64,000 nt of DNA from Candidatus Woesearchaeota archaeon (GCA_043812195.1 JBDRML010000016.1:22093-86092); one strand, 5' to 3'; counted from the stretch's first letter, positions 41,209-58,596 are shown. Notes: a model not told the origin generated them from the letters alone. Numbers and translations: made by a program.

Positions 41209-41892
41209 TTAAAATATTCCAACTAAATGGTAAACTAACTTAGTAGAAACAGCAATTGCATCATCATAATCAATAAATTCTAAGATAATACAGTCATTAT
41301 CTGTTAAATAAATCTGATTCTCATCCCCTTTCTCAAATAATATTATGGTTCTCCCATTACCAGAATCATCACATGTTCTTACAGGAATATCTATATCTTG
41401 TGTAAACTCATTCTCTTCAGTCAACGCACTAATAGTATTTATCTTAAAAACAGCAGGCTCAACACCAGTACTTAATATTCTCTGAGCAGTCAATATAGCA
41501 ATTGCCATTTTTCCATCTGATTCAATATCAAGATCAACATCTCTAGTAATATAAATATTCTTAGTTTTAGACTTATTAAATATTAAATCATTTATAGTAT
41601 CATCTAAAGGGATACCTTCTAACTCTTCAGGACCATATTCAAAGGGAACCTTATACTCCTTTCTAAATTGAGGTACATTATTAACTGTTCTATAATCAAT
41701 CCAAAAAGATACTATATGTATCGGTTTTCCAGTATGTTTATCTACACTTATATTATATTCAATCCCATCAGCCCCAAGATAGCTATACTCATAGGAAATT
41801 CTAGATAAAGTAGGCACAAAAATAACTATTAAAAGTAAAACAACTAAAACAATAATACCTATTGTTATATTTCTTCCCTGTTTTTTATCCAT
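41209..41892 (-). CDS. membrane-anchored extracellular protein (N-terminal TM), paralog of 41895..42395 in its C-terminal Cys-loop region
   Basis: N-terminal MDKKQGRNITIGIIVLVVLLLIVIF; C-terminal CDDSGNGRTIILFEKGDENQIYLTDNDCIILEF similar to DCDGDNFVVVLDSSADEDFYLEDNCIFING. Confidence 0.4.
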   Translation of the reverse strand: MDKKQGRNITIGIIVLVVLLLIVIFVPTLSRISYEYSYLGADGIEYNISVDKHTGKPIHIVSFWIDYRTVNNVPQFRKEYKVPFEYGPEELEGIPLDDTINDLIFNKSKTKNIYITRDVDLDIESDGKMAIAILTAQRILSTGVEPAVFKINTISALTEENEFTQDIDIPVRTCDDSGNGRTIILFEKGDENQIYLTDNDCIILEFIDYDDAIAVSTKLVYHLVGIF

Positions 41893-41894
41893 TT

Positions 41895-42395
41895 TTAAAC
41901 AATAATCCCGAATACAACGTAAGCGAGAAAGTCTATTCCTTTATTAAGATTTCCATTAATAAAAATACAATTATCTTCCAAATAAAAATCTTCATCAGCA
42001 GACGAATCTAATACAACCACAAAATTATCCCCATCACAATCAATAATAGGTAATGTGCTGTTATCATCCAAACTACCAAATTGACTAATTATACCAGCAG
42101 AAGTAAAAACATCTCTCAATCTGGCTCCCTGATACCCATTACTTTTATCAACAACATAAATCAAATTGCCTTTAATATCTATAGGACCCATATCTTCTAC
42201 TTCACTTGGCAAATATGTAAAAGTTTGATAAGAATTAGTTCTTGAAACAAAAGTGGCCCATCCTTGATCAGTTTGTTGAAATTTATATCCGTTGTATTTT
42301 TCAGAACCACCCCCACTATAAATAAATCCCAAAGTACTCATTACCATTATAAATATAATAAAAAGAGCTGCAAACAGATTTTTAGATTTTTTCAT
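41895..42395 (-). CDS. secreted/membrane-anchored small protein with C-terminal Cys-x(~20)-Cys loop
   Basis: Signal peptide MKKSKNLFAALFIIFIMVMS; downstream of the S-layer-like gene in the same orientation. Confidence 0.4.
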   Translation of the reverse strand: MKKSKNLFAALFIIFIMVMSTLGFIYSGGGSEKYNGYKFQQTDQGWATFVSRTNSYQTFTYLPSEVEDMGPIDIKGNLIYVVDKSNGYQGARLRDVFTSAGIISQFGSLDDNSTLPIIDCDGDNFVVVLDSSADEDFYLEDNCIFINGNLNKGIDFLAYVVFGIIV

Positions 42396-42477: not shown

Positions 42478-44685
42478 TTACACTATTTGTTCTGTTCCAG
42501 TTAGGCCACTAGCTGCTACACTACTTGCTGCTCTTGCAGTATCTGCTTTCTCCCATCCAGCTACAATCAATGCCATCTTATCGCCATCTTCCATTAACTT
42601 AATAACGGCTGTATCTGCTGCGATTCCAGAAGCACTTTCACAAGCTGGGTAAGTTAAGCTCATCCATTCTGCAGTTAAGCTATTAACACATGGTCCACCA
42701 ACAAGGATTAAATTGTTATAACCAGCTGCTCCAGATTCAGTTACAAGTACTGCTTCAACATTTGTTGCTGCTCCACCTTCATAAACTCCTACATTAGCTT
42801 TTACCTGATCACCAGGAATTTGTAATGTAAACAAGTCGTTGTCTCCAGAAGAATCAGTTTCATCTGCCCTGATACCATATCCAGTTAACAAGTCATATTT
42901 CTTAGCTCCAACCATTACTCTTTCTACAGCAGTTGCAGTTGCACTTGGTGCCAATGTTGCTCCCCATACAACTTCAGTACTTTCAGAGTTATCTGTAGTT
43001 CCAAATCCTAGATAGTTACCAGCTGTAGCGTTTGTAGATTGTATTCTCCACCATAAGTTATCATTCACATCAGTTGCGTTATCTGGAATAATCCCTAAAT
43101 ACCATGCGTCATCTGCACCAATATCTCCGTATGATCCAAAAACCATATCTGTAGATTTAGTATTTCTGTAGTTCACATATCCCCATGCAGTATAATTAGC
43201 ATTATTAGATATATTTCCTGCGTGTTGCACCTTGTTATCTGAGTCTGTATAGAAGATTAAAGTTCTTCCTACATCCCTATCTGCTGTAGCAGAATTATTT
43301 CCAGCAAAAGTGGTATTAGTCCATAAAAAAATCTCGTCTGTTTTTATATCAGATGTTATCTTTGCTGTACCTGCAGCCTCTATTGCACTTTGATCAAGCA
43401 CCAATCCCTCATTTTCATCAGACACTATAGAAATAACAATAGCTGCGCTTGGGAAAAGTCCTGCATTGGTAAGATCTTCTGTATTTTGACTATCTGTATA
43501 AATTTGTACCTGCATATAGTCATCATCAGCCACATTGAAGTCTTTAACTCCTATGTAAGCATATCCCTCTGGCAATCCATAATACTCTCCAGTTCCAGCA
43601 GGGTCTTTATTATAGTTATATGCTTCAAAGTCGTTTTCTATACAAACCTCATTAAAAGATCCAGATGCTCCAGATGTCAAAGCTCCTGCTTGCAATCCCT
43701 TAATATCCCAAACCCAATCAGGATTATTCTTATCACAATCAGGATCACCATGTGCGTCACTTGGAGAACAATATGTAGGATACTTATCTCCATCTTTATA
43801 AGTTACTCTAGCGTCTTCACCAATCACGAATGTTGCAACTGCTTCAGCTGCAGTACCAACACCAGCTATAGCAGAGTCCAAATAAACATCGATTTCTCCT
43901 TCAGAAACTGTAGAACCTTCACTAATTGTTCTCTGGTCATTTCCAAAATCAATAATAGCACTAGTTCCATCTACAGCAACTACTTCCATTGTTATTCCAT
44001 TACCAGAGTATACTTCTCCTGTGTGTCCAACCCAAGTATCACCAACTTGTGCAGTAAAAGATGAGTTGCTTGCAATAGCGTCAACTCTTAATGTCTTTCC
44101 TAAAAACATCATATCAAATGGATTTGAAGTACTAACTATTCCACTCACATTAATATGTTCATCAAAAGTATAACAATACTTAATTGCATCTTTTCTAATC
44201 TCTAACTTAGGATCCCATTCATACTTATCATCACTACTTGTTAGACTAGTTTCCATATCAAAGTTATTAGCAGTAGCTGTTATTTGAAGTTCATGATGGT
44301 AATCATAACTTGTTCCAGCAATACTCACTTCTGCATCATCAAAGATAGCAGAATCTGAGTCATCATAAATTGTATCCAAACCAGTACTTGTTGCAATGTT
44401 ATCTTGTAATTTAATTTCTTCTATCTGAATTAAATCCCCTAGACCTGCAGCTTCAGCTGTAGCTAAACCATCAAAATATGTTTTCAAAGTGCTTCTTGCA
44501 GCGTCATCATTTGTTCCAGCAGCGCTACCTACAACCATTGCAGTATCTACATAAGAATCACTTACAATAAATGGCGCAGGTAAATCAGCTAAAGTTTCTC
44601 CAGCTGCGAATGCGCCCCCGAAAGCAGACAATAACATTAGTCCACCAGCACCAGCTGCTGCTACTTTTTTAATTATTCGTTTCAT
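42478..44685 (-). CDS. large secreted acidic Thr/Ser/Ala/Gly/Asp-rich protein, candidate S-layer or major surface protein
   Basis: Signal peptide MKRIIKKVAAAGAGGLMLLSAFGGAFAAGE; 735 aa, no TM, low-complexity acidic composition; gene visibly more GC-rich than its surroundings. Confidence 0.5.
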   Translation of the reverse strand: MKRIIKKVAAAGAGGLMLLSAFGGAFAAGETLADLPAPFIVSDSYVDTAMVVGSAAGTNDDAARSTLKTYFDGLATAEAAGLGDLIQIEEIKLQDNIATSTGLDTIYDDSDSAIFDDAEVSIAGTSYDYHHELQITATANNFDMETSLTSSDDKYEWDPKLEIRKDAIKYCYTFDEHINVSGIVSTSNPFDMMFLGKTLRVDAIASNSSFTAQVGDTWVGHTGEVYSGNGITMEVVAVDGTSAIIDFGNDQRTISEGSTVSEGEIDVYLDSAIAGVGTAAEAVATFVIGEDARVTYKDGDKYPTYCSPSDAHGDPDCDKNNPDWVWDIKGLQAGALTSGASGSFNEVCIENDFEAYNYNKDPAGTGEYYGLPEGYAYIGVKDFNVADDDYMQVQIYTDSQNTEDLTNAGLFPSAAIVISIVSDENEGLVLDQSAIEAAGTAKITSDIKTDEIFLWTNTTFAGNNSATADRDVGRTLIFYTDSDNKVQHAGNISNNANYTAWGYVNYRNTKSTDMVFGSYGDIGADDAWYLGIIPDNATDVNDNLWWRIQSTNATAGNYLGFGTTDNSESTEVVWGATLAPSATATAVERVMVGAKKYDLLTGYGIRADETDSSGDNDLFTLQIPGDQVKANVGVYEGGAATNVEAVLVTESGAAGYNNLILVGGPCVNSLTAEWMSLTYPACESASGIAADTAVIKLMEDGDKMALIVAGWEKADTARAASSVAASGLTGTEQIV

Positions 44686-45990: not shown

Positions 45991-45992
45991 TG

Positions 45993-46005
45993 ATGTAGTC
46001 ACCCA
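45993..46005 (+). repeat. 13-bp direct repeat ATGTAGTCACCCA (right copy)
   Basis: Seen directly. Confidence 0.55.
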
Positions 46006-46008
46006 ACA

Positions 46009-46043
46009 TCAAAACATTATTTTTTACAAATTACAACATAAAA
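46009..46043 (+). repeat. copy 2 of the 33-35 bp repeat family
   Basis: caaaacattattttttacaaattacaacataaaac. Confidence 0.6.
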
Positions 46044-46052
46044 CTCAAATGC

Positions 46053-47330
46053 CTATAACAACCATTTCCACAAAGAAATATATTTTATCTTTTTACCATT
46101 AATTCTCTCTTCACCATCCTTATCATTGGTTATAATAACTAAATTATTGCATTTAAGCTCTATACTCGCTTTCAATAATGATTTAATCTCTCTGCTTTTC
46201 GTATTTTCACTTTCAATATCATAGCATACCTGAATTAGTTCTTTAATCTTTAATCCTTCCTTAACAACAAAATCAACTTCATTTTGTTGATGGTCCTTCC
46301 AATAATAAACTTCAGTATTAATTTTATCGTTTTTGAACTTTCTTCTTAATAATTCTATAACGACTATATTTTCGAATAATTTACCATTATCTTTCGACAA
46401 CCTAAAACTAACAAAATTGCAGAATCCATGATCAACAGAATAAACCTTTTTAGGAGCAATTATTTGCTGTTTCAATTTATTTGAATATCTTTCCAAAACT
46501 ATTATCAAAAAAGCTTCCTTTAAATAATTAACATAGTTTTTAATCGTATGAGGATCTTTTATATTAAATATTTTAGAAAGTTTTGAATATGTAAATTCAC
46601 TAGAAAAATTGCTTATGAGATAGCTAGAAAGTTCTCTAAAAGTGCCTTTTTTTTCAATAGCATATCTTCTCAAACAATCTTTGTTTATTATATCCTCGTA
46701 AATTCTCACAACCATATTTGAGCCAAACTTTGCAAATTCAGGAAATCCGCTGCCATGAAGATACTTATTAAACTCCCGCCTTATTTTGGCGCGATCTTCA
46801 GTTGCATAAATATTAGGCTTAAAGCTTAATGTTTCTTTAAATGAAAACGGATATAAAACAAAATCTATGTATCTGCCAGTTAAATGAGTAGCTAACTCAC
46901 CGGATAATAATTTAGAATTACTGCCGGTTATAATAACTTTCTTGCTTCTTCTAAGCCTTGTCGCAAATAATTCCCAGCCAGTTACATTTTGAATTTCATC
47001 CAAAACTACAAGGTCTATATCACCATACATTTCATAAAATGCTTCCAATATTTTATTCAAATCAGATGTCTTGACATTAATCAGCCTTTCATCGTCAAAG
47101 TTTATATAAGCAAAATTTTGTTTTAATTCTTTTGATAAAATCAGAGAAAAAATAGACTTTCCGCTTCTTCTAACACCAAGTATAGCAAGTATATTAGGAT
47201 ACTTAAGATATTTTTTCTCGTAGTCTATGAGCTCTCTTTCTACTATTTTCTCTTCACTAAATTTCTTTTCCAGCTCTCTCCTTTGGTCTTCTATTATCCT
47301 TTTTAGTATCTCTAATTGCATAGGAATCAA
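46053..47330 (-). CDS. AAA+ superfamily ATPase with DUF4143-like C-terminus (COG1373-type predicted archaeal ATPase)
   Basis: P-loop GVRRSGKS; Walker B LVVLDEIQ; 425 aa. Confidence 0.7.
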   Translation of the reverse strand: MIPMQLEILKRIIEDQRRELEKKFSEEKIVERELIDYEKKYLKYPNILAILGVRRSGKSIFSLILSKELKQNFAYINFDDERLINVKTSDLNKILEAFYEMYGDIDLVVLDEIQNVTGWELFATRLRRSKKVIITGSNSKLLSGELATHLTGRYIDFVLYPFSFKETLSFKPNIYATEDRAKIRREFNKYLHGSGFPEFAKFGSNMVVRIYEDIINKDCLRRYAIEKKGTFRELSSYLISNFSSEFTYSKLSKIFNIKDPHTIKNYVNYLKEAFLIIVLERYSNKLKQQIIAPKKVYSVDHGFCNFVSFRLSKDNGKLFENIVVIELLRRKFKNDKINTEVYYWKDHQQNEVDFVVKEGLKIKELIQVCYDIESENTKSREIKSLLKASIELKCNNLVIITNDKDGEERINGKKIKYISLWKWLL

Positions 47331-47534: not shown

Positions 47535-47569
47535 AAACATTTATTTTTCACAAATTACAACATAAAATT
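47535..47569 (+). repeat. copy 4 of the 33-bp repeat, overlapping the true 3' end of pilin-like gene 47541..47951
   Basis: aaacatttatttttcacaaattacaacataaaatt. Confidence 0.6.
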
Positions 47570-47951
47570 CAAACTCTCCAGACCTTCTAAAAGATTCAGA
47601 ATTAATGCCTAAAAAACAATCTCCAACTCTAATTTCTTCACCACTACTGCATTCCATTACAAATCCAGAATCCTCATCAACAAAATTCATATTCCCAGAT
47701 ACAAAATTTCTCAATGTATTACAATCAACTTCTTCACCCAAACAACAACTAGTTGCTAAATCTCCAAAATTAGTTCCGCTAACATCAGCTTTAGCCAAAG
47801 CATTAGCAAAATTATACGCTTTATTATTCAAATAAACATTCCTATCATCTCCTCCACTCCTAGAAAACAATAAAGCAAACAACCCAATAAACACAACTAA
47901 CAAAACAATAATAACCAATCCAAATGTTTCTATTTGTCCTTTTTTAAACAT
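47541..47951 (-). CDS. class III signal peptide (archaeal type IV pilin-like) protein
   Basis: N-terminus MFKKGQIETFGLVIIVLLVVFIGLFALLF: basic residues, G-Q processing motif, hydrophobic helix. Confidence 0.5.
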   Translation of the reverse strand: MFKKGQIETFGLVIIVLLVVFIGLFALLFSRSGGDDRNVYLNNKAYNFANALAKADVSGTNFGDLATSCCLGEEVDCNTLRNFVSGNMNFVDEDSGFVMECSSGEEIRVGDCFLGINSESFRRSGEFEFYVVICEK

Positions 47952-48396
47952 ACCTCTCTACCTCCAGAACACCAACATAATACTTCTCATCCCATGCATT
48001 ATACACACTAACAGGACTAGTTATTTTTCTTATTCCAGTATAACTTGATAATTTATTATCATACAAAACTAAAGTATCAGCAGAAACTTTCAATGTAATT
48101 TTCTTATAACCGAACAAATTCTTATAATATTCATTATCACTCACATCAGCAAAAGCTCTTGCCTTATAAAAATCAATACTTCCTTTTTGATCTCCTCTAA
48201 CAGAATAACTCAATTCAGGCATACTAGGAACAAAACTAATCATATCTTCAAATTTATCTTCTTGATACTTCTCATTTAGATTCTCAATAGATCTAATTTG
48301 AAATTGATAAAACAAAACAAAACCAATCAATAAAATAACCACAACTATAAATATAACAAATCCTGTTTCCTGTATTTGTAATTGTCCTTTTTTCAT
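47944..48396 (-). CDS. class III signal peptide (pilin-like) protein
   Basis: MKKGQLQIQETGFVIFIVVVILLIGFVLFY. Confidence 0.5.
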   Translation of the reverse strand: MKKGQLQIQETGFVIFIVVVILLIGFVLFYQFQIRSIENLNEKYQEDKFEDMISFVPSMPELSYSVRGDQKGSIDFYKARAFADVSDNEYYKNLFGYKKITLKVSADTLVLYDNKLSSYTGIRKITSPVSVYNAWDEKYYVGVLEVERYV

Positions 48397-49217
48397 TAAT
48401 AAATTACCTCACAACCATGATTATCCAAAGCCTCATTCAAACTAATAATTGAATTAATATTATCATCTCTTAAAGCACCTATAATTTGTCCATATTCAGC
48501 ACATTTACTTCCAAAATATTGTGCCTTCTTGATATAAAGTTCTTTCAAACTATTCTTCCTTTCTTCTAAATAATTCTTACTACATTCAAAAACATCCGGA
48601 CTTGAAAACATCGCACCATAAACAAAAACATTATCTCCATTATAATTAAAATATTTATCTTCATTAACATACCAAATCTGATTTCCATTAAAAGCTATAA
48701 CTTTTTTATTAGGATTAGGTTCAGCACCTCCAAAATAAACCAAAACATCAGCATTCCCTTCACTAGTTATTTTCAATTCATTAGGTATCTCATCCATAAA
48801 TTCTTCATTAACACCAGAAAAATAAAATTTCAAATCAGAATTCCATAAATAAACCACAGTATCAATCAAATAAGGTTTTTCATAATTCTGACTCCACATA
48901 CTAAAAGGACCTTCGCTTTTATCTTCAACAAAGATTACACTACTAGATTCAATAGACTGATCTTCATTAATATACATCCTCTCACAATTATATTCTAAAA
49001 CAAAATCTGAAAAATCTTCTCCAAAAACTTTATACTGAGAAATTCCTTTAGCACCCAAAATAGAACTATCCAAAGCCCTTACAATCTTACCATTTTCTTT
49101 ACTCTGCTCTAAATCAATATATCTTACACTAAAGAATGCAAAAAATATTAAAAACAACGCACCAGCAATAATAACAAAAATCCAATTAAACTGAATGCCC
49201 TGACCTCTTTTTTCCAT
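48396..49217 (-). CDS. class III signal peptide (pilin-like) protein, larger (273 aa), possible minor pilin or adhesin
   Basis: MEKRGQGIQFNWIFVIIAGALFLIFFAF. Confidence 0.45.
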   Translation of the reverse strand: MEKRGQGIQFNWIFVIIAGALFLIFFAFFSVRYIDLEQSKENGKIVRALDSSILGAKGISQYKVFGEDFSDFVLEYNCERMYINEDQSIESSSVIFVEDKSEGPFSMWSQNYEKPYLIDTVVYLWNSDLKFYFSGVNEEFMDEIPNELKITSEGNADVLVYFGGAEPNPNKKVIAFNGNQIWYVNEDKYFNYNGDNVFVYGAMFSSPDVFECSKNYLEERKNSLKELYIKKAQYFGSKCAEYGQIIGALRDDNINSIISLNEALDNHGCEVIY

Positions 49218-49322: not shown

Positions 49323-49565
49323 ATGGTGAGCATCACATTATCTGTCCCAGAAGAAATTAAAAAAAGCATGGAAACATTTTCAGAAATAAACTGGTCTGGA
49401 TTTGTCAGAAAATCCATCATAGAAAAAACACAAGAACTAACAAAAAAAGAAGAGTTATTAAAAGAATTAGAAAAAGAAAAAGATATAATAGATTGGTCTG
49501 TAAAACTTCAAAGAGTATCAAGGAAAGGAAGATTCCAAGATTTAAAAAAGAAGGGATTAATATGA
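49323..49565 (+). CDS. ribbon-helix-helix (CopG-like) antitoxin
   Basis: MVSITLSVPEEIKKSMETFSE... beta-strand/helix pattern of RHH antitoxins; stop overlaps the PIN gene start (ATGA). Confidence 0.45.
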   Translation: MVSITLSVPEEIKKSMETFSEINWSGFVRKSIIEKTQELTKKEELLKELEKEKDIIDWSVKLQRVSRKGRFQDLKKKGLI

Positions 49566-49990
49566 AATTGGTAACTGATACAAACATATTATTCACTTTT
49601 TTCTGGAAAAACTCCTATACAAGAAAATTATTCATAAATCAAGATTTAGAATTAATATCTCCAGAATTCGCTTTAGAAGAAATAAAAAAATATTCCGAAG
49701 AAATAATTAGAAGAGCAAAAATATCAAAAAAAGAATTTCAGGATATCAGAAAAGAACTCGCTCTTATGGTTGAATTTATACCTTTAAAAGAATATTCAGA
49801 ATATTTAAAAAAAGCATCAGAAATTTCTTATGATAAAGATGATGTTGATTTTATTGCTTTAGCTTTAAAACTAAAATCCCCCATATGGTCTAATGATAAA
49901 GAATTTAAGAAACAAAATAAAATTAAAGTTTACTCTACTCTAGAAGTTTTAAAAGAATTAAACTATGGATCAATTAATAATGAAAAGTAA
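49562..49990 (+). CDS. PIN-domain toxin (VapC-like)
   Basis: Start moved to in-frame ATG at 49562: MKLVTDTNILF ... DFIALALKLKSPIWSNDKEF (PIN acidic residues). Confidence 0.55.
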   Translation: MKLVTDTNILFTFFWKNSYTRKLFINQDLELISPEFALEEIKKYSEEIIRRAKISKKEFQDIRKELALMVEFIPLKEYSEYLKKASEISYDKDDVDFIALALKLKSPIWSNDKEFKKQNKIKVYSTLEVLKELNYGSINNEK

Positions 49991-50121: not shown

Positions 50122-50613
50122 TTAAATATGTTCCGCTAATACTAATTCTCCTTTATTAGTAAATCTAATGTCAATTTTATTATCAATTAAGTTATCACAT
50201 AATGGATTCAAACCTTCAATATAAATTCTTTCGAATTCTTTAGATCTTAATTTCTCATCAGCAAAAAACACATTTTCATCTTGAAAACCAGAATAAGACA
50301 AATTAATAAATTCTCTCAAATTAAAATTATTAACCAAACTTAAATCAATTTCACTATTTCTATCAATAATACAAATTTCAGAAATACTATTTGGAATATT
50401 AATATTTTCTAAAGACATTATACTTCCAAAACTATCATGATAAACCTTACTTTCAACTTCCTCTATATCACTAACAAATCTTTGATACTCAACTTCCTGT
50501 CCAGTATTTATAACATTAATAATAGCTTTCACTCCAAAAAATAAAATAATAGCAGCAACTATCAAAAGAAAAATATACACAAAAGGTTGCCCCATTAATT
50601 GTCCTTTTCTCAT
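50122..50613 (-). CDS. class III signal peptide (pilin-like) protein
   Basis: MRKGQLMGQPFVYIFLLIVAAIILFFGV; start overlaps the end of the giant gene. Confidence 0.5.
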   Translation of the reverse strand: MRKGQLMGQPFVYIFLLIVAAIILFFGVKAIINVINTGQEVEYQRFVSDIEEVESKVYHDSFGSIMSLENINIPNSISEICIIDRNSEIDLSLVNNFNLREFINLSYSGFQDENVFFADEKLRSKEFERIYIEGLNPLCDNLIDNKIDIRFTNKGELVLAEHI

Positions 50614-53600
50614 CTTGGATAAACTGTAAATGGATTAGTATTCTTATTGTCCCATTTATCTAAACACTTAATATAATAAACATCTTCACCTAAAGAAGCA
50701 TAGTGTTCTTTCTCGTTTCTAGCAGAAATCATAGTAAAGACTGTATCTTCATTTTCATCCTGCACATCAAAGTTATCTTTCTCACTACTATATTTACATA
50801 CACTTTCTTCATTCATCAAAACATGTAATTGCTGACTTGTTGTCCAAACTCTTAATAAAATAGGAGCATCTAAGTCCTTGAATATAACTATAGTTCTTTC
50901 TTCCTGCACCACATTACCAGCAAAATCAGTACACTCATATAAAACAGGATAATGCAGACCTTCAGGAGTTCCTTCAATATCTTCATGTAAAGTCTTATGT
51001 GTTCTTGAAAACAAAGTAGTTACATTATACCAATTATCTCCTATCTGATATTTACATATAGCATCATTTCCTGTTTCAATCTCAATTTCAAATTTATCAT
51101 CATATGTTTCAAATGTTGCATTAGGCTCAATAATATCCATTTCAAATGTTGGCCAAATCATTGCAGTCCATAAGTAAGGATCTTCCATAACATTAGATTC
51201 CTCCCCAATATCAGGTACATCTCCACATTTAATCCATAATGGACAGAAAGTACTATTAAATGGTTTTGTAATTCCATTACCTTCAGGTATATTAATTTCT
51301 TCACACCAGCCAGCTTCTCCTAAATTAAACTCAGTTTGGAATTTCTGGCAAGTTTCATCAGTCTGACTACATGGAGTATTTCCTTTACCACCAAAGCTTG
51401 TCATATCTCCATAATTCAAAGTATCATTATCCTTAGAATATTTACAATCTTGAACATTATTCTTATCATAAGCATACAATATAAATGGAATATTTGTAGT
51501 TCCTTCAGGTACATTAATATTCACAGGATTAATATAATCAATAATTGGAGGCAATTCATCAGGAGCCTCTTTAAAACTAAAACTCACATAATCTTTATCT
51601 TCTTTATTAGTATTTCCAGCTATATCTTGGCATTTAATATAAATATAAGTTTTGTCTCTAACTTTATCTTCAGCTCTAAATGTAATATTCACTCCATGAT
51701 CAGCAGATGCACCCCATGGGAATGAAGTCATATCATCATATTCAGTACTTCTAGCAAAACTATATTTACAATGTCCTATTTCACTAGTATTTATTTTTAG
51801 AAGAGTATAAGAAGTTTCCCATTCAATTTTATCACTAATTTCTAATTTTCTTCCTTCACCCTTAAATTCTTGTATTGTTAAATTATCTTCACCCTTAAAT
51901 TCAATCTCTATAGATTCTAAATAAGGGGAACTATGATCATCAGGCTCAGAAGGCAAACACAATCCTCCAACAACCCCATTTTCTTCAAAAGGAACATAAC
52001 TACACCAATCACTCTCAGCTCCTAAAATCTTACATCTCTTTTCAGTGCAATCCCATTGTCCTTCTAATCCACACTCAGCACAATGAATATTATCAGTATA
52101 TGGTTTCTCCGGAATACATTCTCCTGTTTTAAATGAGGTTGTTACAGTATAAATTGAAGCTATATATGATGCTATAATCAAAATCTTACTAACAGCCTGA
52201 GAAGAAATTTTACCAAATAAACCACCACTAGAAACTTCACCACCTTCAAGAGTATAAGCAACCCCTTCAACACTTTGTGTCACTTGTAAATTAAATTTTA
52301 CTAATGGAGAAATCATATTAGGAGCAATCTTAGAAAATACAATAGTTAAAACATTAGCAGCAGCAGAATAATAGAATGAATTAGGAAATTTTCTATCAGA
52401 ATCAATACCACTAGCCTCAAATATTTCATTTTTTTCTTCTTCGCTCAAAATCTTATCTAAATGGTTAGCCCAAGATAAGATATAAGATAATCTCAATTTA
52501 TCATTATAATATAAATCTCCAGCATCTTTCGGAGTATCGTGTGTACCTGTAGCAGCAGTATAACCATAAACAATAGATAAAACACCCCAATATATTACCG
52601 CACCAAGCGACATAAATCCACCAACAACACCAGACGCACATGCAGCCCACCCTGGGAACCCAACACCAGGAAGTGCAGCAACAACACCACAAACTGCAAT
52701 CATAGATCCCATTGTACCTACAGCAATTGCTCCAGTAGTTGCAAGCCCTGCTGTTGAAAAACCATCAGCTTCGAACTGGCAATCTCCTAAAGCATTACAC
52801 TCAAAATCAGTACAAACATTTACAGAACCATCGCCACCTTTTCCACACTGGCTACATCTATTTCCTGAATCACCATATCCTTCAGCTCCTTCACCAGGAG
52901 GATACAAAGCATTACAACTTCCAATTGGTGCCCAAACATCCCTATCATAACCTTCCTCTTGCATTAAAGGTCCACCACCACAATTACCAAAATCAGAACA
53001 TTTATCTTGATTATTAAACCACCCATTATCATCAGTACATTGTTTGCCAACAACATTAGCTAAAAATTGTCCAACACCTGGCGCATAATTAAAAAAATCA
53101 ATCACAGAACGCCCATCTCCACAATCCTTATGACATTTTTCCCAGGCATTATCAACCAAATCAGCCTCTACCCTTGTTAAATTTCCAATCTTAGTTACAG
53201 ATTCTTCACATCTCATTCCCCTATTTTTATCATCATAATCAGGTTCTATTTCTCTATTCTGGCATGTTAACACATAATTATGCAATCCAGTACTTTTTCT
53301 ATCATTCAAAAAATGTCCAGAAAGAACATTCATACAAATAGACTCTCCACTTTTAAAAGTATTTGGCCATGTATTAGGAGAATCTTCAACACAATCAGTA
53401 CTTAAACAAACCGCATCTTCACCACCAACCACATTATCAGGGTCATCACACATTCCACCAGGCCTGCATTCATCAAATATTTCTTCTCTATTTCCATCAG
53501 AATCATAATAATAAACATCCCACTTATCATCATCAGTAGTTCCATCGCCGCAGCTTTTAAACTTATGACCTTCTCTATAACTAGGACACCCAACAACTTC

Positions 53601-54221
53601 AGAACATAAAGTACTTTCAAAGAAATTAGCCCTTTCAAATCCAGGAGCATCTTTAAATCTATCTAAAGGACCATATTCACAAACTCCACCACCCGCACTC
53701 TTATAACATCCAGTTACAGAACCAGAACATTCTAAATTACAATCTTGTCTATTTGTAATTCCACCAATAAATTGTTCGCCACCTAAATCAGTTCTACAAA
53801 CTTTTTCTTCTTGAACACTACAAGAACCAAATTGTATGCAACATCCAGATTGACAAGCACTAACAGATTCCTTAGAAGCACCTAAATGAAAAGTGCCGCC
53901 ATCTGTTTTACATCTAACTTCTTCAACATTATCTAAACAACCACCAACATCAGAAGGGACACATGCACCTTTTTGACACTCATTTATTTCTCCTTTAGTC
54001 TGAAAATTCCATTCATGCCCTCCTGCACATCCACCATAAGCATCCCAACCTTGTCCATTAGAAACTTCAACACAATAATCTCCATTATTAGTTAAACCGC
54101 AAGTATCAACATTAGCAGCTGAAACTTCTTCAGTATTTAAAACCAAAGCAAAATTAATAACAGCTACAATCATTATAACTGAGAAAAATACAGCAATTGA
54201 TTTTCTAATAGCATATTTCAT
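50610..54221 (-). CDS. giant (1203 aa) cysteine-rich secreted/polytopic surface protein of unknown function
   Basis: Signal peptide MKYAIRKSIAVFFSVIMIVAVINFALVLNTEEVSAA; ~480-aa Cys-rich ectodomain; central Gly/Ala-rich hydrophobic block (~aa 490-690, 2-4 TM helices); ~500-aa C-terminal domain with further Cys pairs. Confidence 0.6.
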   Translation of the reverse strand: MKYAIRKSIAVFFSVIMIVAVINFALVLNTEEVSAANVDTCGLTNNGDYCVEVSNGQGWDAYGGCAGGHEWNFQTKGEINECQKGACVPSDVGGCLDNVEEVRCKTDGGTFHLGASKESVSACQSGCCIQFGSCSVQEEKVCRTDLGGEQFIGGITNRQDCNLECSGSVTGCYKSAGGGVCEYGPLDRFKDAPGFERANFFESTLCSEVVGCPSYREGHKFKSCGDGTTDDDKWDVYYYDSDGNREEIFDECRPGGMCDDPDNVVGGEDAVCLSTDCVEDSPNTWPNTFKSGESICMNVLSGHFLNDRKSTGLHNYVLTCQNREIEPDYDDKNRGMRCEESVTKIGNLTRVEADLVDNAWEKCHKDCGDGRSVIDFFNYAPGVGQFLANVVGKQCTDDNGWFNNQDKCSDFGNCGGGPLMQEEGYDRDVWAPIGSCNALYPPGEGAEGYGDSGNRCSQCGKGGDGSVNVCTDFECNALGDCQFEADGFSTAGLATTGAIAVGTMGSMIAVCGVVAALPGVGFPGWAACASGVVGGFMSLGAVIYWGVLSIVYGYTAATGTHDTPKDAGDLYYNDKLRLSYILSWANHLDKILSEEEKNEIFEASGIDSDRKFPNSFYYSAAANVLTIVFSKIAPNMISPLVKFNLQVTQSVEGVAYTLEGGEVSSGGLFGKISSQAVSKILIIASYIASIYTVTTSFKTGECIPEKPYTDNIHCAECGLEGQWDCTEKRCKILGAESDWCSYVPFEENGVVGGLCLPSEPDDHSSPYLESIEIEFKGEDNLTIQEFKGEGRKLEISDKIEWETSYTLLKINTSEIGHCKYSFARSTEYDDMTSFPWGASADHGVNITFRAEDKVRDKTYIYIKCQDIAGNTNKEDKDYVSFSFKEAPDELPPIIDYINPVNINVPEGTTNIPFILYAYDKNNVQDCKYSKDNDTLNYGDMTSFGGKGNTPCSQTDETCQKFQTEFNLGEAGWCEEINIPEGNGITKPFNSTFCPLWIKCGDVPDIGEESNVMEDPYLWTAMIWPTFEMDIIEPNATFETYDDKFEIEIETGNDAICKYQIGDNWYNVTTLFSRTHKTLHEDIEGTPEGLHYPVLYECTDFAGNVVQEERTIVIFKDLDAPILLRVWTTSQQLHVLMNEESVCKYSSEKDNFDVQDENEDTVFTMISARNEKEHYASLGEDVYYIKCLDKWDNKNTNPFTVYPR

Positions 54222-55054
54222 TCTTCAATTATAAAGTGAAATCTTAAAGCTTCACCATCCTCCTCATCTTCATATCCTTCTAAATACCACGGCTTAAATC
54301 CTTCATCATTAGGACCATTTGCAATTGAAGCAGCTAAAATATCTCCCCCTTGCTCATGATCCCACACATAATCATCAATTTCAAATCCTTCTCCACCACA
54401 TTCTCCATTCACAACATCAATAGCAATCATATAAATGTCAAACAAATTAGAATCCAAATCAATAGATAAATCTCTAAAATCAGTGCTATAACCAGATTTA
54501 CTTATTTTAACTGGAAAACTAACATCCTGTCTTATTTTTTTAGGTAAAATATCAGGAGCATCTAAATTCAATTTTAAAAATTCATAATCTAAATCCAAAC
54601 CTTCTCTTTCAAATTCTACAAAAGAACTACCAATACAATTCTCCAAATCTTCTCTCTGCTCAGCACTATTCATAAATAACTTTATCTGTTTAGCAACATT
54701 AAAAAGCAAAGGCAATGTATTTGCATCACCTTTACAAGCATAACCAATACTTATATTTTCAAAACATTCTTCAGAATTTAAATCATAATCAACACACACA
54801 TTTTCATAATAAACAGGATTGTAAAATCCACCTTGCCAAGAAACTAATCTAACACCTTCCATCAGCTTAGAACTCACACAATTTCTAACAACATTCTTAA
54901 TAGGTTCAACTCTAGCAGAAACAAATCTCTCAGCTTCTTCATCATCTAAATCTCCTTTAAATATAGTATCTCTAAAAAAGAATAAAAGCCCAACTATAAT
55001 TAAAACAACAATACCCAGAATAATAAAAATTGTTACTTGACCTCTTTTATTCAT
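54218..55054 (-). CDS. class III signal peptide (pilin-like) protein, 278 aa
   Basis: MNKRGQVTIFIILGIVVLIIVGLLFF; end overlaps the giant gene start. Confidence 0.5.
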   Translation of the reverse strand: MNKRGQVTIFIILGIVVLIIVGLLFFFRDTIFKGDLDDEEAERFVSARVEPIKNVVRNCVSSKLMEGVRLVSWQGGFYNPVYYENVCVDYDLNSEECFENISIGYACKGDANTLPLLFNVAKQIKLFMNSAEQREDLENCIGSSFVEFEREGLDLDYEFLKLNLDAPDILPKKIRQDVSFPVKISKSGYSTDFRDLSIDLDSNLFDIYMIAIDVVNGECGGEGFEIDDYVWDHEQGGDILAASIANGPNDEGFKPWYLEGYEDEEDGEALRFHFIIEE

Positions 55055-55267: not shown

Positions 55268-55609
55268 TCACCTACCTTCTGCCCCTATCACAATTTTATT
55301 TCCAATTTTTGTTATAGATATTTCAGTATGCTCATCCAATTTAAGTTGTTTTTCTAAGTCACTGGGTATTCTAAATGTTAAACCACCCCCGCTTTTTGAC
55401 AGATGTCTATAAAGCTTTAACGGCTCAGGCCAAACACCTAATTTTCTTGCTACTTCAATTGTTTTTTGTGTTTCTTCTTCAAAAGGGAACTCTTCATTAC
55501 AATTAATACATCTCTCCCCCTTAACTATAAACACATAACCTTCAATTTCTAATACTATATCCTCTACTTTTATTAAATTTCCTTTCTCACATGTTAGACA
55601 TTTTCTCAT
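55268..55609 (-). CDS. putative antitoxin: YgiT/MqsA-type zinc ribbon + AbrB/SpoVT-like C-terminal domain
   Basis: CLTCEKG...CINCNEE zinc-ribbon pattern; C-terminal GGGLTFRIPSDLEKQLKL...ISITKIGNKIVI swapped-hairpin-like. Confidence 0.4.
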   Translation of the reverse strand: MRKCLTCEKGNLIKVEDIVLEIEGYVFIVKGERCINCNEEFPFEEETQKTIEVARKLGVWPEPLKLYRHLSKSGGGLTFRIPSDLEKQLKLDEHTEISITKIGNKIVIGAEGR

Positions 55610-55848
55610 TTTCCTTCAGCTCCAGTTATTATGAAAATTTCTTTATAATCCTCATCCTTTATAAATATTAATTTCCTACTTTTTCTTTTTGTCCTCATAT
55701 ATGCCTCATATTTATTTTTGCCAACTTTGTCAATCTTATACGCATTCTCCAATGCATTTTTTAGTGAATAAATATCATAATCCCACTTTCTCATCCATGT
55801 TAAAATAAAATGCTTGCTTGGTCTAATTTTGTAGTTACTTATGTCCAT
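55606..55848 (-). CDS. putative toxin, DUF4258-like (RelE/BrnT fold)
   Basis: 80 aa; HFILTWMRKWDYDIYSLKNALENA...KLIFIKDEDYKEIFIITGAE resembles DUF4258; 4-nt overlap with the downstream gene. Confidence 0.35.
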   Translation of the reverse strand: MDISNYKIRPSKHFILTWMRKWDYDIYSLKNALENAYKIDKVGKNKYEAYMRTKRKSRKLIFIKDEDYKEIFIITGAEGK

Positions 55849-57078: not shown

Positions 57079-57663
57079 TTATATCAACTCCGAAAACGCA
57101 ATTTTTAACCAGCCAAGATAAGGCACCTTAAAAACGGCCCTCCCAACAACTCTATCTTCTGTAATATCTAATTCATTTAATCCTTGGCCACTATCCACAT
57201 TATTATCTCCTTTTGTCTGGAAATGATACTCTCCATCTACATCCCAAACCTTTACAACCCTATGTATGATTGGATTGTCTAAATTTGATTGAAATACTAG
57301 TATATCCCCTATATTTATATTTTGTGGAGATTCACCAACTAGTATCATAATATCTCCTTTATTAAATCCATTCTTAAATTCAAAGTTTTCAAAGTCTTCT
57401 ATTTTTATATTATTACTCTCGTACCATTCTTTATTATCTTCCCACCAAGCAAAAAAATCATTATTATCATGCTCCATACTCCCAGAAACAACAGCCACAA
57501 TAGGAAACCCAGTTCCCAATAGTAAACCTAATCCAGGATATATTAAAAATTTAACAATTATAAATGCTAATACAAAAGATACTAACCAACTCCAAACTGA
57601 ATCACTTTTCCATAAAAAATTCCAAGTCTTTTTTAAAGTACTAACCATAAGAATATATGACAA
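57079..57663 (-). CDS. signal peptidase I, archaeal/eukaryotic Sec11-type
   Basis: N-terminal TM; VAVVSGSMEH catalytic Ser box. Confidence 0.75.
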   Translation of the reverse strand: MSYILMVSTLKKTWNFLWKSDSVWSWLVSFVLAFIIVKFLIYPGLGLLLGTGFPIVAVVSGSMEHDNNDFFAWWEDNKEWYESNNIKIEDFENFEFKNGFNKGDIMILVGESPQNINIGDILVFQSNLDNPIIHRVVKVWDVDGEYHFQTKGDNNVDSGQGLNELDITEDRVVGRAVFKVPYLGWLKIAFSELI

Positions 57664-57994: not shown

Positions 57995-58360
57995 TTATTT
58001 AACAAATTCAACATTATCAAGATTTTCAAACTCTTTATCTCCTGTAACAAACTTCCATTTCCTATTTATTGATATAGCATATCCCAAACAATCTATATAA
58101 CTAAATTTTTTTGGTTTAAATTTAGATTTTAATTTTGAAGCAAGTTTTATATCTTCTATGTCAAATGATATTAAAAGTTCTTTAAATTTTTCAGTTATTT
58201 CATCCGCTTTTCCCTCTCCAAAAGATTTAAGAATAGCATTATGTAACTCTAAAAGATTAAGTAATGATGTAAAATTTATAGTGTCCTTAAACTTTTCATA
58301 ATTATTATTTTCCTTAACAATTTCAATTAATGCATAAGTGTCTAAGAGATATTCTTCCAT
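57995..58360 (-). CDS. vapC: PIN-domain toxin VapC
   Basis: MEEYLLDTYALIEIVKEN... N-terminal Asp; 121 aa; overlaps the upstream AbrB-type antitoxin gene by 19 nt. Confidence 0.5.
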   Translation of the reverse strand: MEEYLLDTYALIEIVKENNNYEKFKDTINFTSLLNLLELHNAILKSFGEGKADEITEKFKELLISFDIEDIKLASKLKSKFKPKKFSYIDCLGYAISINRKWKFVTGDKEFENLDNVEFVK

Positions 58361-58596
58361 TTCCTTTTTTCAGCTTCATACTCCTCTTTTCTAATCTCAT
58401 CCTTAAATTTCTGTGTATCTATTTTCCAATTCTTTAAAGTCCCAAAAGTCTCTCTTAAAACATTCCTGCCTTCTCTTTTAACCAAAACTGTAACTTCATC
58501 TCCTTCTTTTATATTCTCATCTTTAACTTCACCAATAGGTATAATTACACCAAACGAATTTCCCCATTTCCTTAATTTAGATTTGATTTCTATCAT
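58342..58596 (-). CDS. vapB: AbrB/MazE/SpoVT-type antitoxin VapB
   Basis: MIEIKSKLRKWGNSFGVIIPIGEVKDENIKEGDEVTV swapped-hairpin signature (WGNS..IP). Confidence 0.6.
   Translation of the reverse strand: MIEIKSKLRKWGNSFGVIIPIGEVKDENIKEGDEVTVLVKREGRNVLRETFGTLKNWKIDTQKFKDEIRKEEYEAEKRKWKNIS

What the first reader, a model, noticed from the sequence alone, without database searches (positions are those of the whole stretch)
50610..54221. Giant Cys-rich protein with an ectodomain / polytopic middle / ectodomain architecture
After a signal peptide, the first ~480 residues carry dozens of cysteines in CxxC, CxC and Cx(4-8)C spacings (e.g. CGLTNNGDYCVEVSNGQGWDAYGGCAGGHEWNFQTKGEINECQKGAC). A ~200-residue Gly/Ala-rich hydrophobic block follows (…AIAVGTMGSMIAVCGVVAALPGVGFPGWAACASGVVGGFMSLGAVIYWGVLSIVYGY…) and is predicted to cross the membrane several times. 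A further ~500-residue domain follows, with its own Cys pairs and no obvious enzymatic motif. This combination does not match a protein family I recognise. Extracellular disulfide-rich modules anchored by an internal membrane block suggest a receptor- or fusion-like surface machine.
Basis: seen in the sequence. Interest (0 to 1): 0.75.

Follow-up and report, generated by a model that had tools for sequence, protein, structure and literature searches.

The report
Disulfide-stapled envelope protein of Woesearchaeota
This gene encodes a 1,203-residue, cysteine-packed surface protein from an unannotated family found only in tiny Nanoarchaeota-type archaea, where it is always encoded beside pilin-like genes and usually near the S-layer gene, so it is probably a core but unstudied part of how these cells build their surface or attach to others.

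Summary
The ORF is real. It lies on the minus strand (50610-54221), encodes 1,203 aa and carries 58 Cys.

Architecture:
- N-terminal signal or anchor.
- A ~450-aa Cys-rich head with no sequence or fold relatives.
- A small Cys "knuckle".
- A ~210-aa hypervariable middle. Only ~60 aa of it form a Gly/Ala-rich hydrophobic block, closed by its own Cys pair, and there is one further hydrophobic helix.
- A second copy of the knuckle.
- Four Ig-like domains.

There is no Pfam, NCBIfam or PDB hit.

The protein belongs to a large, wholly "hypothetical" superfamily. At least 120 full-length clusters were seen, and every organism-labelled member is from Woesearchaeota, Pacearchaeota or Nanoarchaeota.

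Cys counts are odd in the N half, even in the middle and odd in the C half in nearly all members. I infer that all Cys are paired and that one disulfide staples the two halves, which puts both outside the cell.

The gene is translationally coupled to a class-III-signal (pilin-like) protein. It sits in a conserved cluster: PCNA, pilin-like, giant, four pilin-like genes, S-layer gene, two anchored proteins.

Best reading (about 0.45): it is the large non-pilin subunit of a pilin-like envelope assembly, acting as an anchored adhesin or scaffold.

The parts
50610..54221 (-). Whole ORF, 1,203 aa. Identical to NCBI MAG protein ABIH25_01895 'hypothetical protein', Candidatus Woesearchaeota archaeon.
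54117..54221 (-). Residues 1-35: N-terminal signal or anchor. The h-region is ~21 aa, preceded by R-K-S (K/R-G in most homologs, which is class-III-like) and followed by V-S-A|A-N (an AxA site for signal peptidase I). The cleavage type is ambiguous.
52764..54116 (-). Residues 36-486: Cys-rich head with 37 Cys. The model shows tandem beta-beta-alpha-beta Cys repeats (about 78-215) and then a beta-rich part. pLDDT is 75-90 for the first ~240 aa and lower beyond. No fold relative was found.
52773..52868 (-). Residues 452-483: Cys knuckle 1, motif CxxCGxGGDxxxNxCTxxECNALGDCxF.
   Evidence: hhalign to knuckle 2, probability 92%
52557..52754 (-). Residues 490-555: Gly/Ala-rich hydrophobic block. G502, P518 and W545 (the 'LYWG' motif) are conserved.
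52638..52691 (-). Residues 511-528: C511-x16-C528 loop containing P518. Homologs carry 0, 2 or 4 Cys here and never an odd number.
52197..52556 (-). Residues 556-675: hypervariable, acidic, Cys-free segment. The model shows helices at pLDDT<50.
52131..52196 (-). Residues 676-697: moderately hydrophobic helix just before knuckle 2. In distant relatives the equivalent helix is amphipathic and carries charged residues.
51942..52124 (-). Residues 700-760: Cys knuckle 2 region, motif GxCxPE...CxxCGxxEGQWxCTxxRCxILG...C...C.
50613..51926 (-). Residues 766-1203: four Ig-like beta-sandwich repeats. Each has a conserved Cys pair of the form 'CxY ... (I/Y)xCxDxxGN'. pLDDT is 80-90.
54218..55054 (-). Partner gene, 278 aa, N-terminus MNKRGQVTIFIILG... 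(class-III/pilin-like). Its stop codon overlaps the giant's start codon. It is paired with a giant in every locus examined except L027, where it was not detected.
50122..50613 (-). Pilin-like gene, 163 aa (MRKGQL...). Its start codon overlaps the giant's stop codon.
48396..49217 (-). Pilin-like gene, 273 aa (MEKRGQG...).
47944..48396 (-). Pilin-like gene, 150 aa (MKKGQL...).
47541..47951 (-). Pilin-like gene, 136 aa (MFKKGQI...), 6 Cys.
42478..44685 (-). S-layer-like protein, 735 aa (PF05124, 35.4 bits against a cut-off of 23.9). It is the conserved downstream member of the cluster.
41209..42395 (-). Two conserved N-terminally anchored proteins (166 and 227 aa) that follow the S-layer gene in most loci.

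Best explanation
The gene encodes an extracytoplasmic, essentially fully disulfide-bonded envelope protein. It is the large non-pilin subunit of a lineage-specific, type-IV-pilin-like (class III signal peptide) surface assembly of Woesearchaeales/Pacearchaeales-type Nanoarchaeota.

Shown:
- Domain order: signal or anchor; a ~450-aa Cys-rich head of novel fold; a Cys knuckle; a ~210-aa hypervariable loop that begins with a ~60-aa Gly/Ala-rich hydrophobic block closed by its own Cys pair; a duplicated Cys knuckle; four Ig-like domains.
- A fixed gene cluster: PCNA, pilin-like 278, giant, pilin-like 163, 273, 150 and 136, S-layer, two anchored proteins.
- Start and stop codon overlaps with both neighbouring genes.

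Inferred:
- All Cys form disulfides.
- One disulfide, most simply between the two homologous knuckles, staples head to stalk across the variable loop.
- Both halves therefore face outward, and the hydrophobic loop dips into or through the cell's own membrane as an anchor. An even number of passes, or a peripheral insertion, would fit.
- In relatives that lack any hydrophobic loop, the membrane helix of the pilin-like partner would do the anchoring.
- The complex projects an adhesive or structural head-plus-Ig stalk into the S-layer zone. It would serve cell-to-cell or cell-to-host attachment, or envelope scaffolding, in the way large accessory proteins (PilY1-type adhesins, Ig-rich 'S-layer-like' proteins) accompany minor pilins in other type IV filament loci.
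For: - The ORF is real and its composition is far from chance.
- 21 full-length homologs at 28-55% identity keep nearly every Cys.
- A profile search of 1.84 billion representatives gives 3,459 hits, 899 of them at E<1e-30. Of the 150 listed, 120 are 950-1,450 aa with at least 50 Cys.
- A 45-sequence alignment at 21% mean identity still keeps 37 invariant Cys columns across the whole length.
- Cys parity: N half odd, middle even, C half odd, total even, in 31/31 and 43/45 sequences. Counts change only in steps of two.
- The Cys-Pro-Cys loop in the hydrophobic block holds an even number of Cys in 31/31 sequences.
- Knuckle 1 matches knuckle 2 (hhalign 92%), with negative controls below 2%.
- The C half is tandem Ig-like: pLDDT 80-90 and Foldseek E down to 3e-10 against Ig/FN3/cadherin ectodomains and an S-layer. 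Distant members give sub-threshold Big_13, Y_Y_Y and DUF4625 hits.
- The cluster is kept in about 20 of 30 loci, down to 28% identity, and the pilin-like 278-aa partner is present in all but one locus with flanks.
- In the 64-kb window the class-III-like N-terminus occurs only in the five cluster genes, apart from one spurious out-of-frame ORF inside the giant gene, and it is conserved in their orthologs.
- All organism-labelled members are from Woesearchaeota, Pacearchaeota, Nanoarchaeota or Nanoarchaeia.
- Literature: archaeal type IV filament loci often carry large Ig-rich adhesin or S-layer-like accessory proteins with conserved cysteines (PMC4858521; bioRxiv 10.64898/2026.04.22.720090).
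Against: - No type IV filament ATPase, TadC/platform protein or prepilin peptidase was found among the window ORFs that were Pfam-scanned or among the genes called in the flanks of L001-L004, L031 and L032 (19-22, 58, 59). About 20 window ORFs were not scanned.
- The pilin-like assignment of the neighbours rests only on an N-terminal motif. No pilin HMM matches them.
- A protein held in the membrane by its own hairpin cannot sit at the tip of a long filament, so the PilY1 analogy is only organisational.
- The adjacency to PCNA/TFS and to the S-layer gene fits a purely structural S-layer role equally well.
- Disulfides are inferred from parity, not observed, and many of these organisms live in anoxic water.
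Confidence: 0.45

Rival explanations
1. S-layer anchor or second S-layer subunit. The protein would be the membrane-embedded pedestal that tethers the PF05124-type S-layer lattice, in the role SlaB plays for SlaA. The pilin-like neighbours would be merely N-terminally anchored envelope proteins and no filament would be involved.
For: - An S-layer gene lies in the same conserved cluster in about 20 loci.
- The gene is near-universal, has one or a few copies, and sits in a housekeeping position next to PCNA/TFS.
- Ig-like arrays are typical of archaeal S-layer proteins, and one Foldseek hit is the Deinococcus HPI S-layer.
- No filament ATPase or platform gene was found in the parts of the window and flanks that were scanned.
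Against: - In L004, L031 and L032 the giant-plus-partner pair occurs without an adjacent S-layer gene.
- The tightest linkage is to the 278-aa pilin-like gene, not to the S-layer gene.
- Many superfamily members have no hydrophobic segment at all and so could not act as an anchor.
- The giant itself has no sequence similarity to S-layer families.
Confidence: 0.22
2. Host-membrane insertion or fusion device. The Gly/Ala/Pro/Trp-rich loop bounded by Cys511 and Cys528, bracketed by two knuckles, would act like the disulfide-closed internal fusion loops of some viral class I glycoproteins (Ebola GP2 and ASLV TM, cited from my own knowledge). It would insert into a host cell membrane to make the contacts or bridges that DPANN symbionts need.
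For: - The composition of the loop and its conserved Cys pairing.
- Both halves lie on the outside.
- The family is restricted to a lineage thought to be episymbiotic.
- The middle region is hypervariable, as expected for a host-facing element.
Against: - No fold similarity to any fusogen or viral glycoprotein and no viral homologs.
- No heptad-repeat or trimerisation signal was examined or seen.
- The hydrophobic element is absent from a large part of the superfamily.
- The hydrophobic stretch extends well beyond the Cys loop (about 60 aa), which looks more like an anchor.
- The resemblance is by composition only.
Confidence: 0.12
3. The protein would be a true polytopic membrane protein (3+1 or 1+1 spans) with a ~120-aa cytoplasmic loop, acting as a receptor or transducer between two ectodomains.
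For: - KD peaks at 493-553 and 676-694.
- AF2 places three helices in the first block and one at 674-694 in protein numbering.
- An even number of spans would satisfy the parity-derived N-out/C-out topology.
Against: - The would-be cytoplasmic loop is acidic and poor in K/R (for example 2-5 K/R against 20-25 D/E in P0019-P0021), which runs against the positive-inside rule.
- It is hypervariable in sequence and length, and in many relatives it has no flanking hydrophobic segments, so it would have to be extracellular there.
- A paired Cys loop lies between the first two putative spans.
- Model confidence is below 50 throughout the region.
Confidence: 0.13
4. Extracellular metal- or cluster-binding (redox) protein. 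The cysteines would ligate Zn or Fe-S rather than forming disulfides. The two CxxCG...CxxxxC knuckles would be zinc ribbons.
For: - The CxxCG...C-x4-C spacing of the knuckles resembles zinc knuckles (the comparison is from my own knowledge).
- Many of these organisms live in anoxic habitats.
Against: - Strict even total and pairwise gain and loss of Cys across 45 sequences is the signature of disulfides, not of 4-Cys metal sites.
- Each Ig repeat has exactly one Cys pair in the classic cross-sandwich position.
- There is no heme, ferredoxin or other redox motif and no matching HMM.
Confidence: 0.05

Closest known systems
Large accessory adhesin or 'S-layer-like' Ig-fold proteins encoded in archaeal type IV pilus loci (Makarova, Koonin & Albers 2016, PMC4858521; 2026 TFF survey, bioRxiv 10.64898/2026.04.22.720090)
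   Same: A large signal-peptide protein with Ig-like domains and many conserved cysteines, encoded among several pilin-like genes and next to an S-layer-like gene.
   Different: - No ATPase, TadC or peptidase genes were found at the locus.
- The Cys-rich head, the duplicated knuckles and the internal hydrophobic loop are not described for those proteins.
- No sequence link to any arCOG could be tested with these tools.
Bacterial PilY1 / PilC with the minor-pilin operon (fimU-pilVWXY1E)
   Same: The operon logic: four to five distinct, fixed-order pilin-like genes plus one non-pilin protein of about 1,100-1,200 aa that has an N-terminal signal.
   Different: - No PilY1 beta-propeller or vWA domain (no Pfam hit).
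- The domain is archaeal rather than bacterial.
- The giant may be anchored in the membrane, whereas PilY1 sits at the pilus tip.
SlaB-type S-layer anchor of Sulfolobales
   Same: An envelope protein encoded beside the S-layer gene, with an elongated ectodomain and a hydrophobic anchor.
   Different: - SlaB has a single C-terminal TM helix and a coiled coil.
- Here the hydrophobic element is internal, the protein is bipartite and Cys-rich, and there is no sequence similarity.
Big_13 / Y_Y_Y / DUF4625 bacterial Ig-like domains (PF19077, PF07495, PF15418)
   Same: The four C-terminal repeats are Ig-like sandwiches ending in a '...C-x-D-x-x-G-N' strand. Distant family members give weak hits to these models.
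   Different: The target itself gives no hit even at E<=0.1, and the hits in relatives are below the gathering scores.
Disulfide-bounded internal fusion loops of viral class I glycoproteins, and archaeal fusexin Fsx1
   Same: A hydrophobic Gly/Ala/Pro/Trp-rich loop closed by a Cys pair in an extracellular, disulfide-rich protein.
   Different: - No C-terminal TM helix.
- No evidence of trimeric coiled coils.

Membership tests
Any Pfam-A / NCBIfam family (whole protein) | HMM match at or above the curated cut-off | tested here: not met
   0 families at E<=0.1 in Pfam and in NCBIfam. The precomputed Pfam field is '-' for all 21 homologs.
Ig-like beta-sandwich ectodomain arrays | Tandem two-sheet sandwiches with fold-level similarity to Ig/FN3/cadherin | tested here: met
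   - AF2 pLDDT is 80-90 for residues about 700-1203.
- Foldseek against PDB gives 382 hits at E<=1e-3, and those listed are tandem Ig/FN3/cadherin-like chains.
- The repeats are homologous to one another (hhalign 63-96%).
Big_13 (PF19077) / Y_Y_Y / DUF4625 | Pfam gathering score reached | tested here: not met
   There is no hit in the target. Full-length family relatives give only sub-threshold hits, e.g. P0053 with 26.2 bits against a cut-off of 27.
Type IV pilin / class III signal peptide protein (the giant itself) | A short basic N-terminus with K/R at -2 and G/A/S at -1, followed by a ~20-aa hydrophobic helix and cleaved by a PibD/FlaK-type peptidase | tested here: inconclusive
   The motif [KR][GS][IVF]AVF is present in most of the subfamily, but an AxA signal-peptidase-I site follows about 25 aa later, and many distant members have plain short Sec signals. 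Cleavage cannot be tested here.
Type IV pilin-like proteins (the five neighbours) | The class III signal motif, conserved in orthologs | tested here: met
   - M-x(1-3)-[KR]-G-Q followed by a hydrophobic helix is present in all five genes and in their orthologs.
- In the window it is unique to these genes, apart from one spurious out-of-frame ORF inside the giant gene.
- No pilin HMM matches, so homology to known pilins is not shown.
Type IV filament system (complete) | A secretion ATPase, a TadC/FlaJ platform protein and a prepilin peptidase encoded with the pilins | tested here: not met
   None was found among the window ORFs scanned or in the gene tables of the flanks of L001-L004, L031 and L032. 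About 20 window ORFs were not scanned. The genes may lie elsewhere in the genome, which was not testable.
PilY1 / PilC adhesins | A C-terminal PilY1 beta-propeller (PF05567), with or without an N-terminal vWA domain | tested here: not met
   No Pfam hit. The fold searches return only Ig-like matches for the C half and nothing for the N half.
Archaeal S-layer protein (PF05124 / TIGR01564) | HMM match | tested here: not met
   The giant has no hit. The neighbour at 42478-44685 does match PF05124, with 35.4 bits against a cut-off of 23.9.
Fusexin / HAP2 class II fusogens | A three-domain beta fold with fusion loops, and structural similarity to Fsx1/HAP2 | tested here: not met
   [not shown]
Polytopic integral membrane protein | Several conserved, clearly hydrophobic ~20-aa spans and loops obeying the positive-inside rule | tested here: inconclusive
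   - KD peaks are 1.6-2.1 in the target.
- They are absent in P0002, P0013 and many distant members.
- The loops are acidic.
- pLDDT is below 50.
- No dedicated topology predictor was available.
Disulfide-rich extracytoplasmic protein | Cys conserved in pairs, with an even total | tested here: met
   The total is even in 31/31 and 43/45 sequences, and counts vary only in steps of two. This is an inference from counts. The bonds themselves were not observed.

The most novel reading that the evidence does not exclude
The family is a lineage-wide DPANN cell-contact machine. The head and the Ig stalk, stapled together by a disulfide between the two knuckles, would present a disulfide-closed hydrophobic loop that inserts into a partner or host membrane, in the manner of an internal fusion loop. 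The five pilin-like proteins would act as a short pseudopilus that pushes or positions it through the S-layer. This would be the long-sought protein basis for the membrane contacts and cytoplasmic bridges of nanosized archaeal symbionts.
Probability: 0.1. Interest if true: 0.9.

Novelty: new variant of a known kind. Interest (0 to 1): 0.55.

Why it matters
Woesearchaeota and Pacearchaeota are abundant, uncultured, small-genome archaea whose way of life (free-living or attached to hosts) is unresolved, and almost nothing is known about their envelopes.

This work defines a large, completely unannotated protein superfamily that is apparently universal in these lineages and is fixed in a conserved envelope gene cluster with pilin-like and S-layer genes.

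It also gives concrete, testable structural predictions:
- about 29 disulfides;
- one bridge between head and stalk;
- a Cys-closed hydrophobic loop;
- a two-gene core module.

If the complex mediates attachment, it is a prime target for understanding, and perhaps for capturing or cultivating, these organisms. If it is only an S-layer pedestal, it still fills a gap in archaeal envelope biology.

Tried and rejected
- Sequence families: Pfam and NCBIfam on the target and its neighbours gave nothing for the giant or for the pilin-like genes.
- PDB by sequence: the profile of the giant and the profile of the 278-aa partner gave nothing meaningful.
- Fold searches:
  - The full model against PDB with Foldseek returned only generic tandem Ig-like hits from the C half.
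  - The N-domain model against BFVD gave nothing at E<=1e-3.
  - The afdb50 library was not available.
- A second homolog search with the 45-sequence alignment returned essentially the same 21 proteins, so it was unproductive.
- The search for related loci with the broad alignment failed for lack of a conserved stretch. It was rerun with the close alignment.
- The viral contig scan found no relatives, so a viral or mobile origin is rejected. The fixed chromosomal synteny points the same way.
- Literature searches and the papers read do not describe this family. The DPANN 'dark matter' cluster cls.004306 (NEQ255, 'secreted protein next to S-layer-like proteins', PMC6393860) may be one of the neighbours, but this could not be checked.
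- The plus-strand ORFs inside the gene (51336-51725 and 52739-53017) are low-complexity antisense artefacts.
- An enzymatic role was considered and dropped, because there is no catalytic motif and no matching HMM.
- The TM-hairpin model, in which the Cys-Pro-Cys turn would face the cytoplasm, was considered and down-weighted because the Cys in that turn are gained and lost in pairs.

Full report
**Observation**

The interval 50610-54221 holds one uninterrupted ORF on the minus strand, encoding 1,203 aa.

The protein has 58 Cys (4.8%). The other 64 ORFs of the window have 0.93%, giving a binomial P of about 2e-23. Of the 58 Cys, 37 lie in residues 36-485, 2 in the hydrophobic block and 19 in residues 702-1203.

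The window is archaeal and AT-rich (about 29% GC). It carries PCNA, TFS, RpoL, aRF1 and an archaeal signal peptidase I (gene tables). The protein is identical to a 'hypothetical protein' of a Candidatus Woesearchaeota MAG.

**Correction to the observation**

The '~200-residue hydrophobic block' breaks down as follows:
- A ~60-residue Gly/Ala-rich hydrophobic stretch (about 493-553, Kyte-Doolittle peaks 1.6-2.1).
- About 120 polar, acidic, Cys-free residues.
- One further moderately hydrophobic helix at 676-694.

In the closest homolog (55% identity) and several others, no 19-residue window in this region reaches KD 1.5. AlphaFold2 draws helices here, but at pLDDT<50.

**Family**

Pfam, NCBIfam and a PDB sequence-profile search find nothing.

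A first search found 21 full-length homologs at 28-55% identity, all from metagenomes. Nearly all Cys columns are invariant among them.

A profile search of 1.84 billion representative proteins gave 3,459 hits, 899 of them at E<1e-30. Part of that tail consists of unrelated proteins that share only Ig-like repeats. Of the 150 hits listed, however, 120 are 950-1,450 aa with at least 50 Cys.

A 45-sequence alignment at about 21% mean identity keeps 37 invariant Cys columns spread over the whole length. The whole architecture is therefore a conserved superfamily.

Every member that carries an organism label is from Woesearchaeota, Pacearchaeota, Nanoarchaeota or Nanoarchaeia, and all are annotated as hypothetical. 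There are no viral relatives.

**Anatomy**

1. *Residues 1-35.* These form a signal or anchor. Most subfamily members read M-x5-[KR]-G-[IVF]-A-V-F, a class-III-like -2/-1 motif. An AxA site (VSA|AN) follows about 25 residues later, so the processing route is ambiguous.
3. *The two knuckles.* A small Cys knuckle lies at 452-483 (CxxCGxGGD...CTxxECNALGDCxF). A second copy lies at about 712-740 (CxxCGxxEGQWxCTxxRCxILG). hhalign probability between them is 92%, and controls are below 2%. The two knuckles bracket the variable middle.
4. *Residues 766-1203.* These form four mutually homologous Ig-like sandwiches, each with one conserved Cys pair ('CxY ... xCxDxxGN'). pLDDT is 80-90, and Foldseek E-values reach 3e-10 against tandem Ig/FN3/cadherin ectodomains.

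**New evidence on topology: Cys parity**

In 31 of 31 subfamily members the N part has an odd number of Cys (37-43). The middle is even (0, 2 or 4) and the C part odd (17-21) in 30 of the 31; the one exception (middle 3, C part 20) looks like a boundary mis-assignment. The total is even in all 31.

In the 45-sequence superfamily alignment the same pattern holds in 43 of 45. Two of the odd cases are boundary mis-assignments. Counts range over 37-55 and 17-27 and always change in steps of two.

I draw three inferences from this:
- Essentially all Cys are disulfide-bonded.
- One bond must link the N half to the C half, most simply knuckle to knuckle. Both halves therefore lie in the same oxidising compartment, outside the cell.
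- The two Cys inside the hydrophobic block (C511 and C528, flanking the near-invariant P518) pair with each other. Homologs have 0, 2 or 4 Cys there in 31 of 31 cases.

A disulfide-closed turn is hard to reconcile with a simple TM hairpin whose turn faces the cytoplasm.

The middle region is also hypervariable and acidic, and it is poor in K/R. Many distant members have no hydrophobic stretch at all. These are typically the ones with short Sec signals and a mature 'CCEKT' N-terminus. Members with long '[KR][GA][IVL]xF'-type N-termini usually do have a hydrophobic stretch (Mann-Whitney P=6e-4).

The robust statement is therefore limited. There are two covalently linked ectodomains joined by a plastic, often hydrophobic loop that probably serves as a membrane anchor. 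The number of spans is unknown. A literal polytopic core is not established.

**Genomic context**

The stop codon of the upstream 278-aa gene overlaps the giant's start codon, and the giant's stop codon overlaps the start of the downstream 163-aa gene.

These two genes and three further downstream genes (273, 150 and 136 aa) all begin M-x(1-3)-[KR]-G-Q followed by a ~20-aa hydrophobic helix. This is the archaeal class III (type IV pilin-like) signal. In the 64-kb window the pattern occurs only in these five genes, apart from one spurious out-of-frame ORF inside the giant gene. It is conserved in their orthologs.

Across 32 loci from metagenomes and GTDB species representatives the following order recurs, down to 28% identity:
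- aRF1, ScpB, GT2, a 218-aa protein, HTH, RpoL, signal peptidase I, TFS, PCNA
- [278] [giant] [163] [273] [150] [136]
- S-layer (PF05124)
- [166] [227]

Very distant members (P0146, P0065) still sit near TFS/PCNA and are still paired with a 'KRGQVT.F.I.G' protein. The pair is tandemly duplicated in L031. The two-gene pair is therefore the core module.

The partner family has no Pfam or PDB relative. No type IV filament ATPase, platform protein or prepilin peptidase was found among the window ORFs scanned or among the genes called in the flanks of six loci (19-22, 58, 59).

**Interpretation**

My best explanation (about 0.45) is that the protein is the large non-pilin subunit of a lineage-specific pilin-like envelope assembly. 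It would be anchored by its hydrophobic loop, or by its partner's helix in relatives that lack the loop. It would project a disulfide-rigidified head and Ig stalk into the S-layer zone for attachment or scaffolding.

This matches a known organisational theme. Archaeal type IV filament loci often include large Ig-rich adhesin or 'S-layer-like' proteins with conserved cysteines (PMC4858521; bioRxiv 10.64898/2026.04.22.720090). Bacterial minor-pilin operons carry PilY1.

Membership in any of those families was tested and not met. The claim is about how the protein works, not about homology.

Rivals:
- A pure S-layer pedestal (0.22).
- A host-membrane insertion or fusion device built on the Cys-closed hydrophobic loop (0.12).
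- The literal polytopic receptor (0.13).
- A metal-binding protein (0.05).

**Verdict**

The membrane block is overstated, and the fusion idea is unsupported but not excluded.

The family is unannotated and its head has no detectable structural relatives. The general kind, a large Cys/Ig-rich surface protein encoded with pilin-like and S-layer genes, is already known in archaea. I therefore rate it a new variant of a known kind, with interest 0.55.

Noticed in passing
window 59144-59800 (-): A conserved N-terminally anchored 218-aa protein that always follows the GT2 gene in this neighbourhood. It has 2 Cys in the window and in two of the three orthologs examined (L001, L002), and 4 in L003. 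It gives weak, sub-threshold thioredoxin-fold hits at its C-terminus (PF13192 E=0.0017; TIGR00412 E=0.0012). It has no CxxC motif. It could be an extracytoplasmic thiol-disulfide protein relevant to the heavy disulfide load of the giant protein.
   Followed up: partly
window 57079-57663 (-): An archaeal-type signal peptidase I (TIGR02228, 74 bits against a cut-off of 51.85). It is conserved three genes upstream of the cluster in nearly all loci.
   Followed up: yes
window 45040-47330, 49323-49990, 55268-55848, 57995-58596: This genome has mobile-type insertions inside an otherwise contiguous conserved cluster. They are a Fic protein, an AAA_14/DUF4143 ATPase, a small ORF plus PIN_2 pair on the opposite strand, two small ORFs between PCNA and the 278-aa gene, and a MazE-like/PIN pair. 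None of them is present in the 55%-identity ortholog locus L001.
   Followed up: partly
window 37584-39593 (-): A 669-aa protein with dozens of N-x-S/T sequons, a C-terminal TM helix followed by KKKK, and repeated 'W.C.A.D..(G/S)N'-type strands resembling the giant's Ig repeats. It has no Pfam or NCBIfam hit. It is probably a heavily N-glycosylated surface protein.
   Followed up: partly
window 1-36000: Among the ORFs scanned, the upstream half of the window is mostly envelope-glycan and lipid genes: GT1/GT4 glycosyltransferases, GDP-mannose dehydratase, DegT aminotransferase, a Wzx-like flippase, the MprF-like LPG_synthase_TM domain and a CDP-alcohol phosphatidyltransferase. The whole region is therefore envelope-themed.
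   Followed up: partly
L031 3090-11651; L032 8001-19019: Some Nanoarchaeia genomes carry two giant paralogs. In L031 the (pilin-like 253 aa + giant) pair is tandemly duplicated. In L032 a second giant (1,195 aa) follows a PEGA-domain protein, and the first giant is followed by two copies of the pilin-like partner.
   Followed up: partly
superfamily members P0051, P0056, P0057, P0094, P0106, P0113, P0117, P0118, P0146 and others: Many distant members start their mature chain with a conserved 'CCEKT' motif straight after a short Sec signal, and they have no hydrophobic middle. The target's clade instead has 'AANVDTC' or 'CC' variants after a long anchor-like signal. These look like two anchoring styles within one superfamily.
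   Followed up: partly
window 41209-42395 (-): Two N-terminally anchored proteins (166 and 227 aa) with 2 Cys each in the window and in the three orthologs examined (L001-L003) follow the S-layer gene in most loci. They have no family hit and their function is unknown.
   Followed up: no
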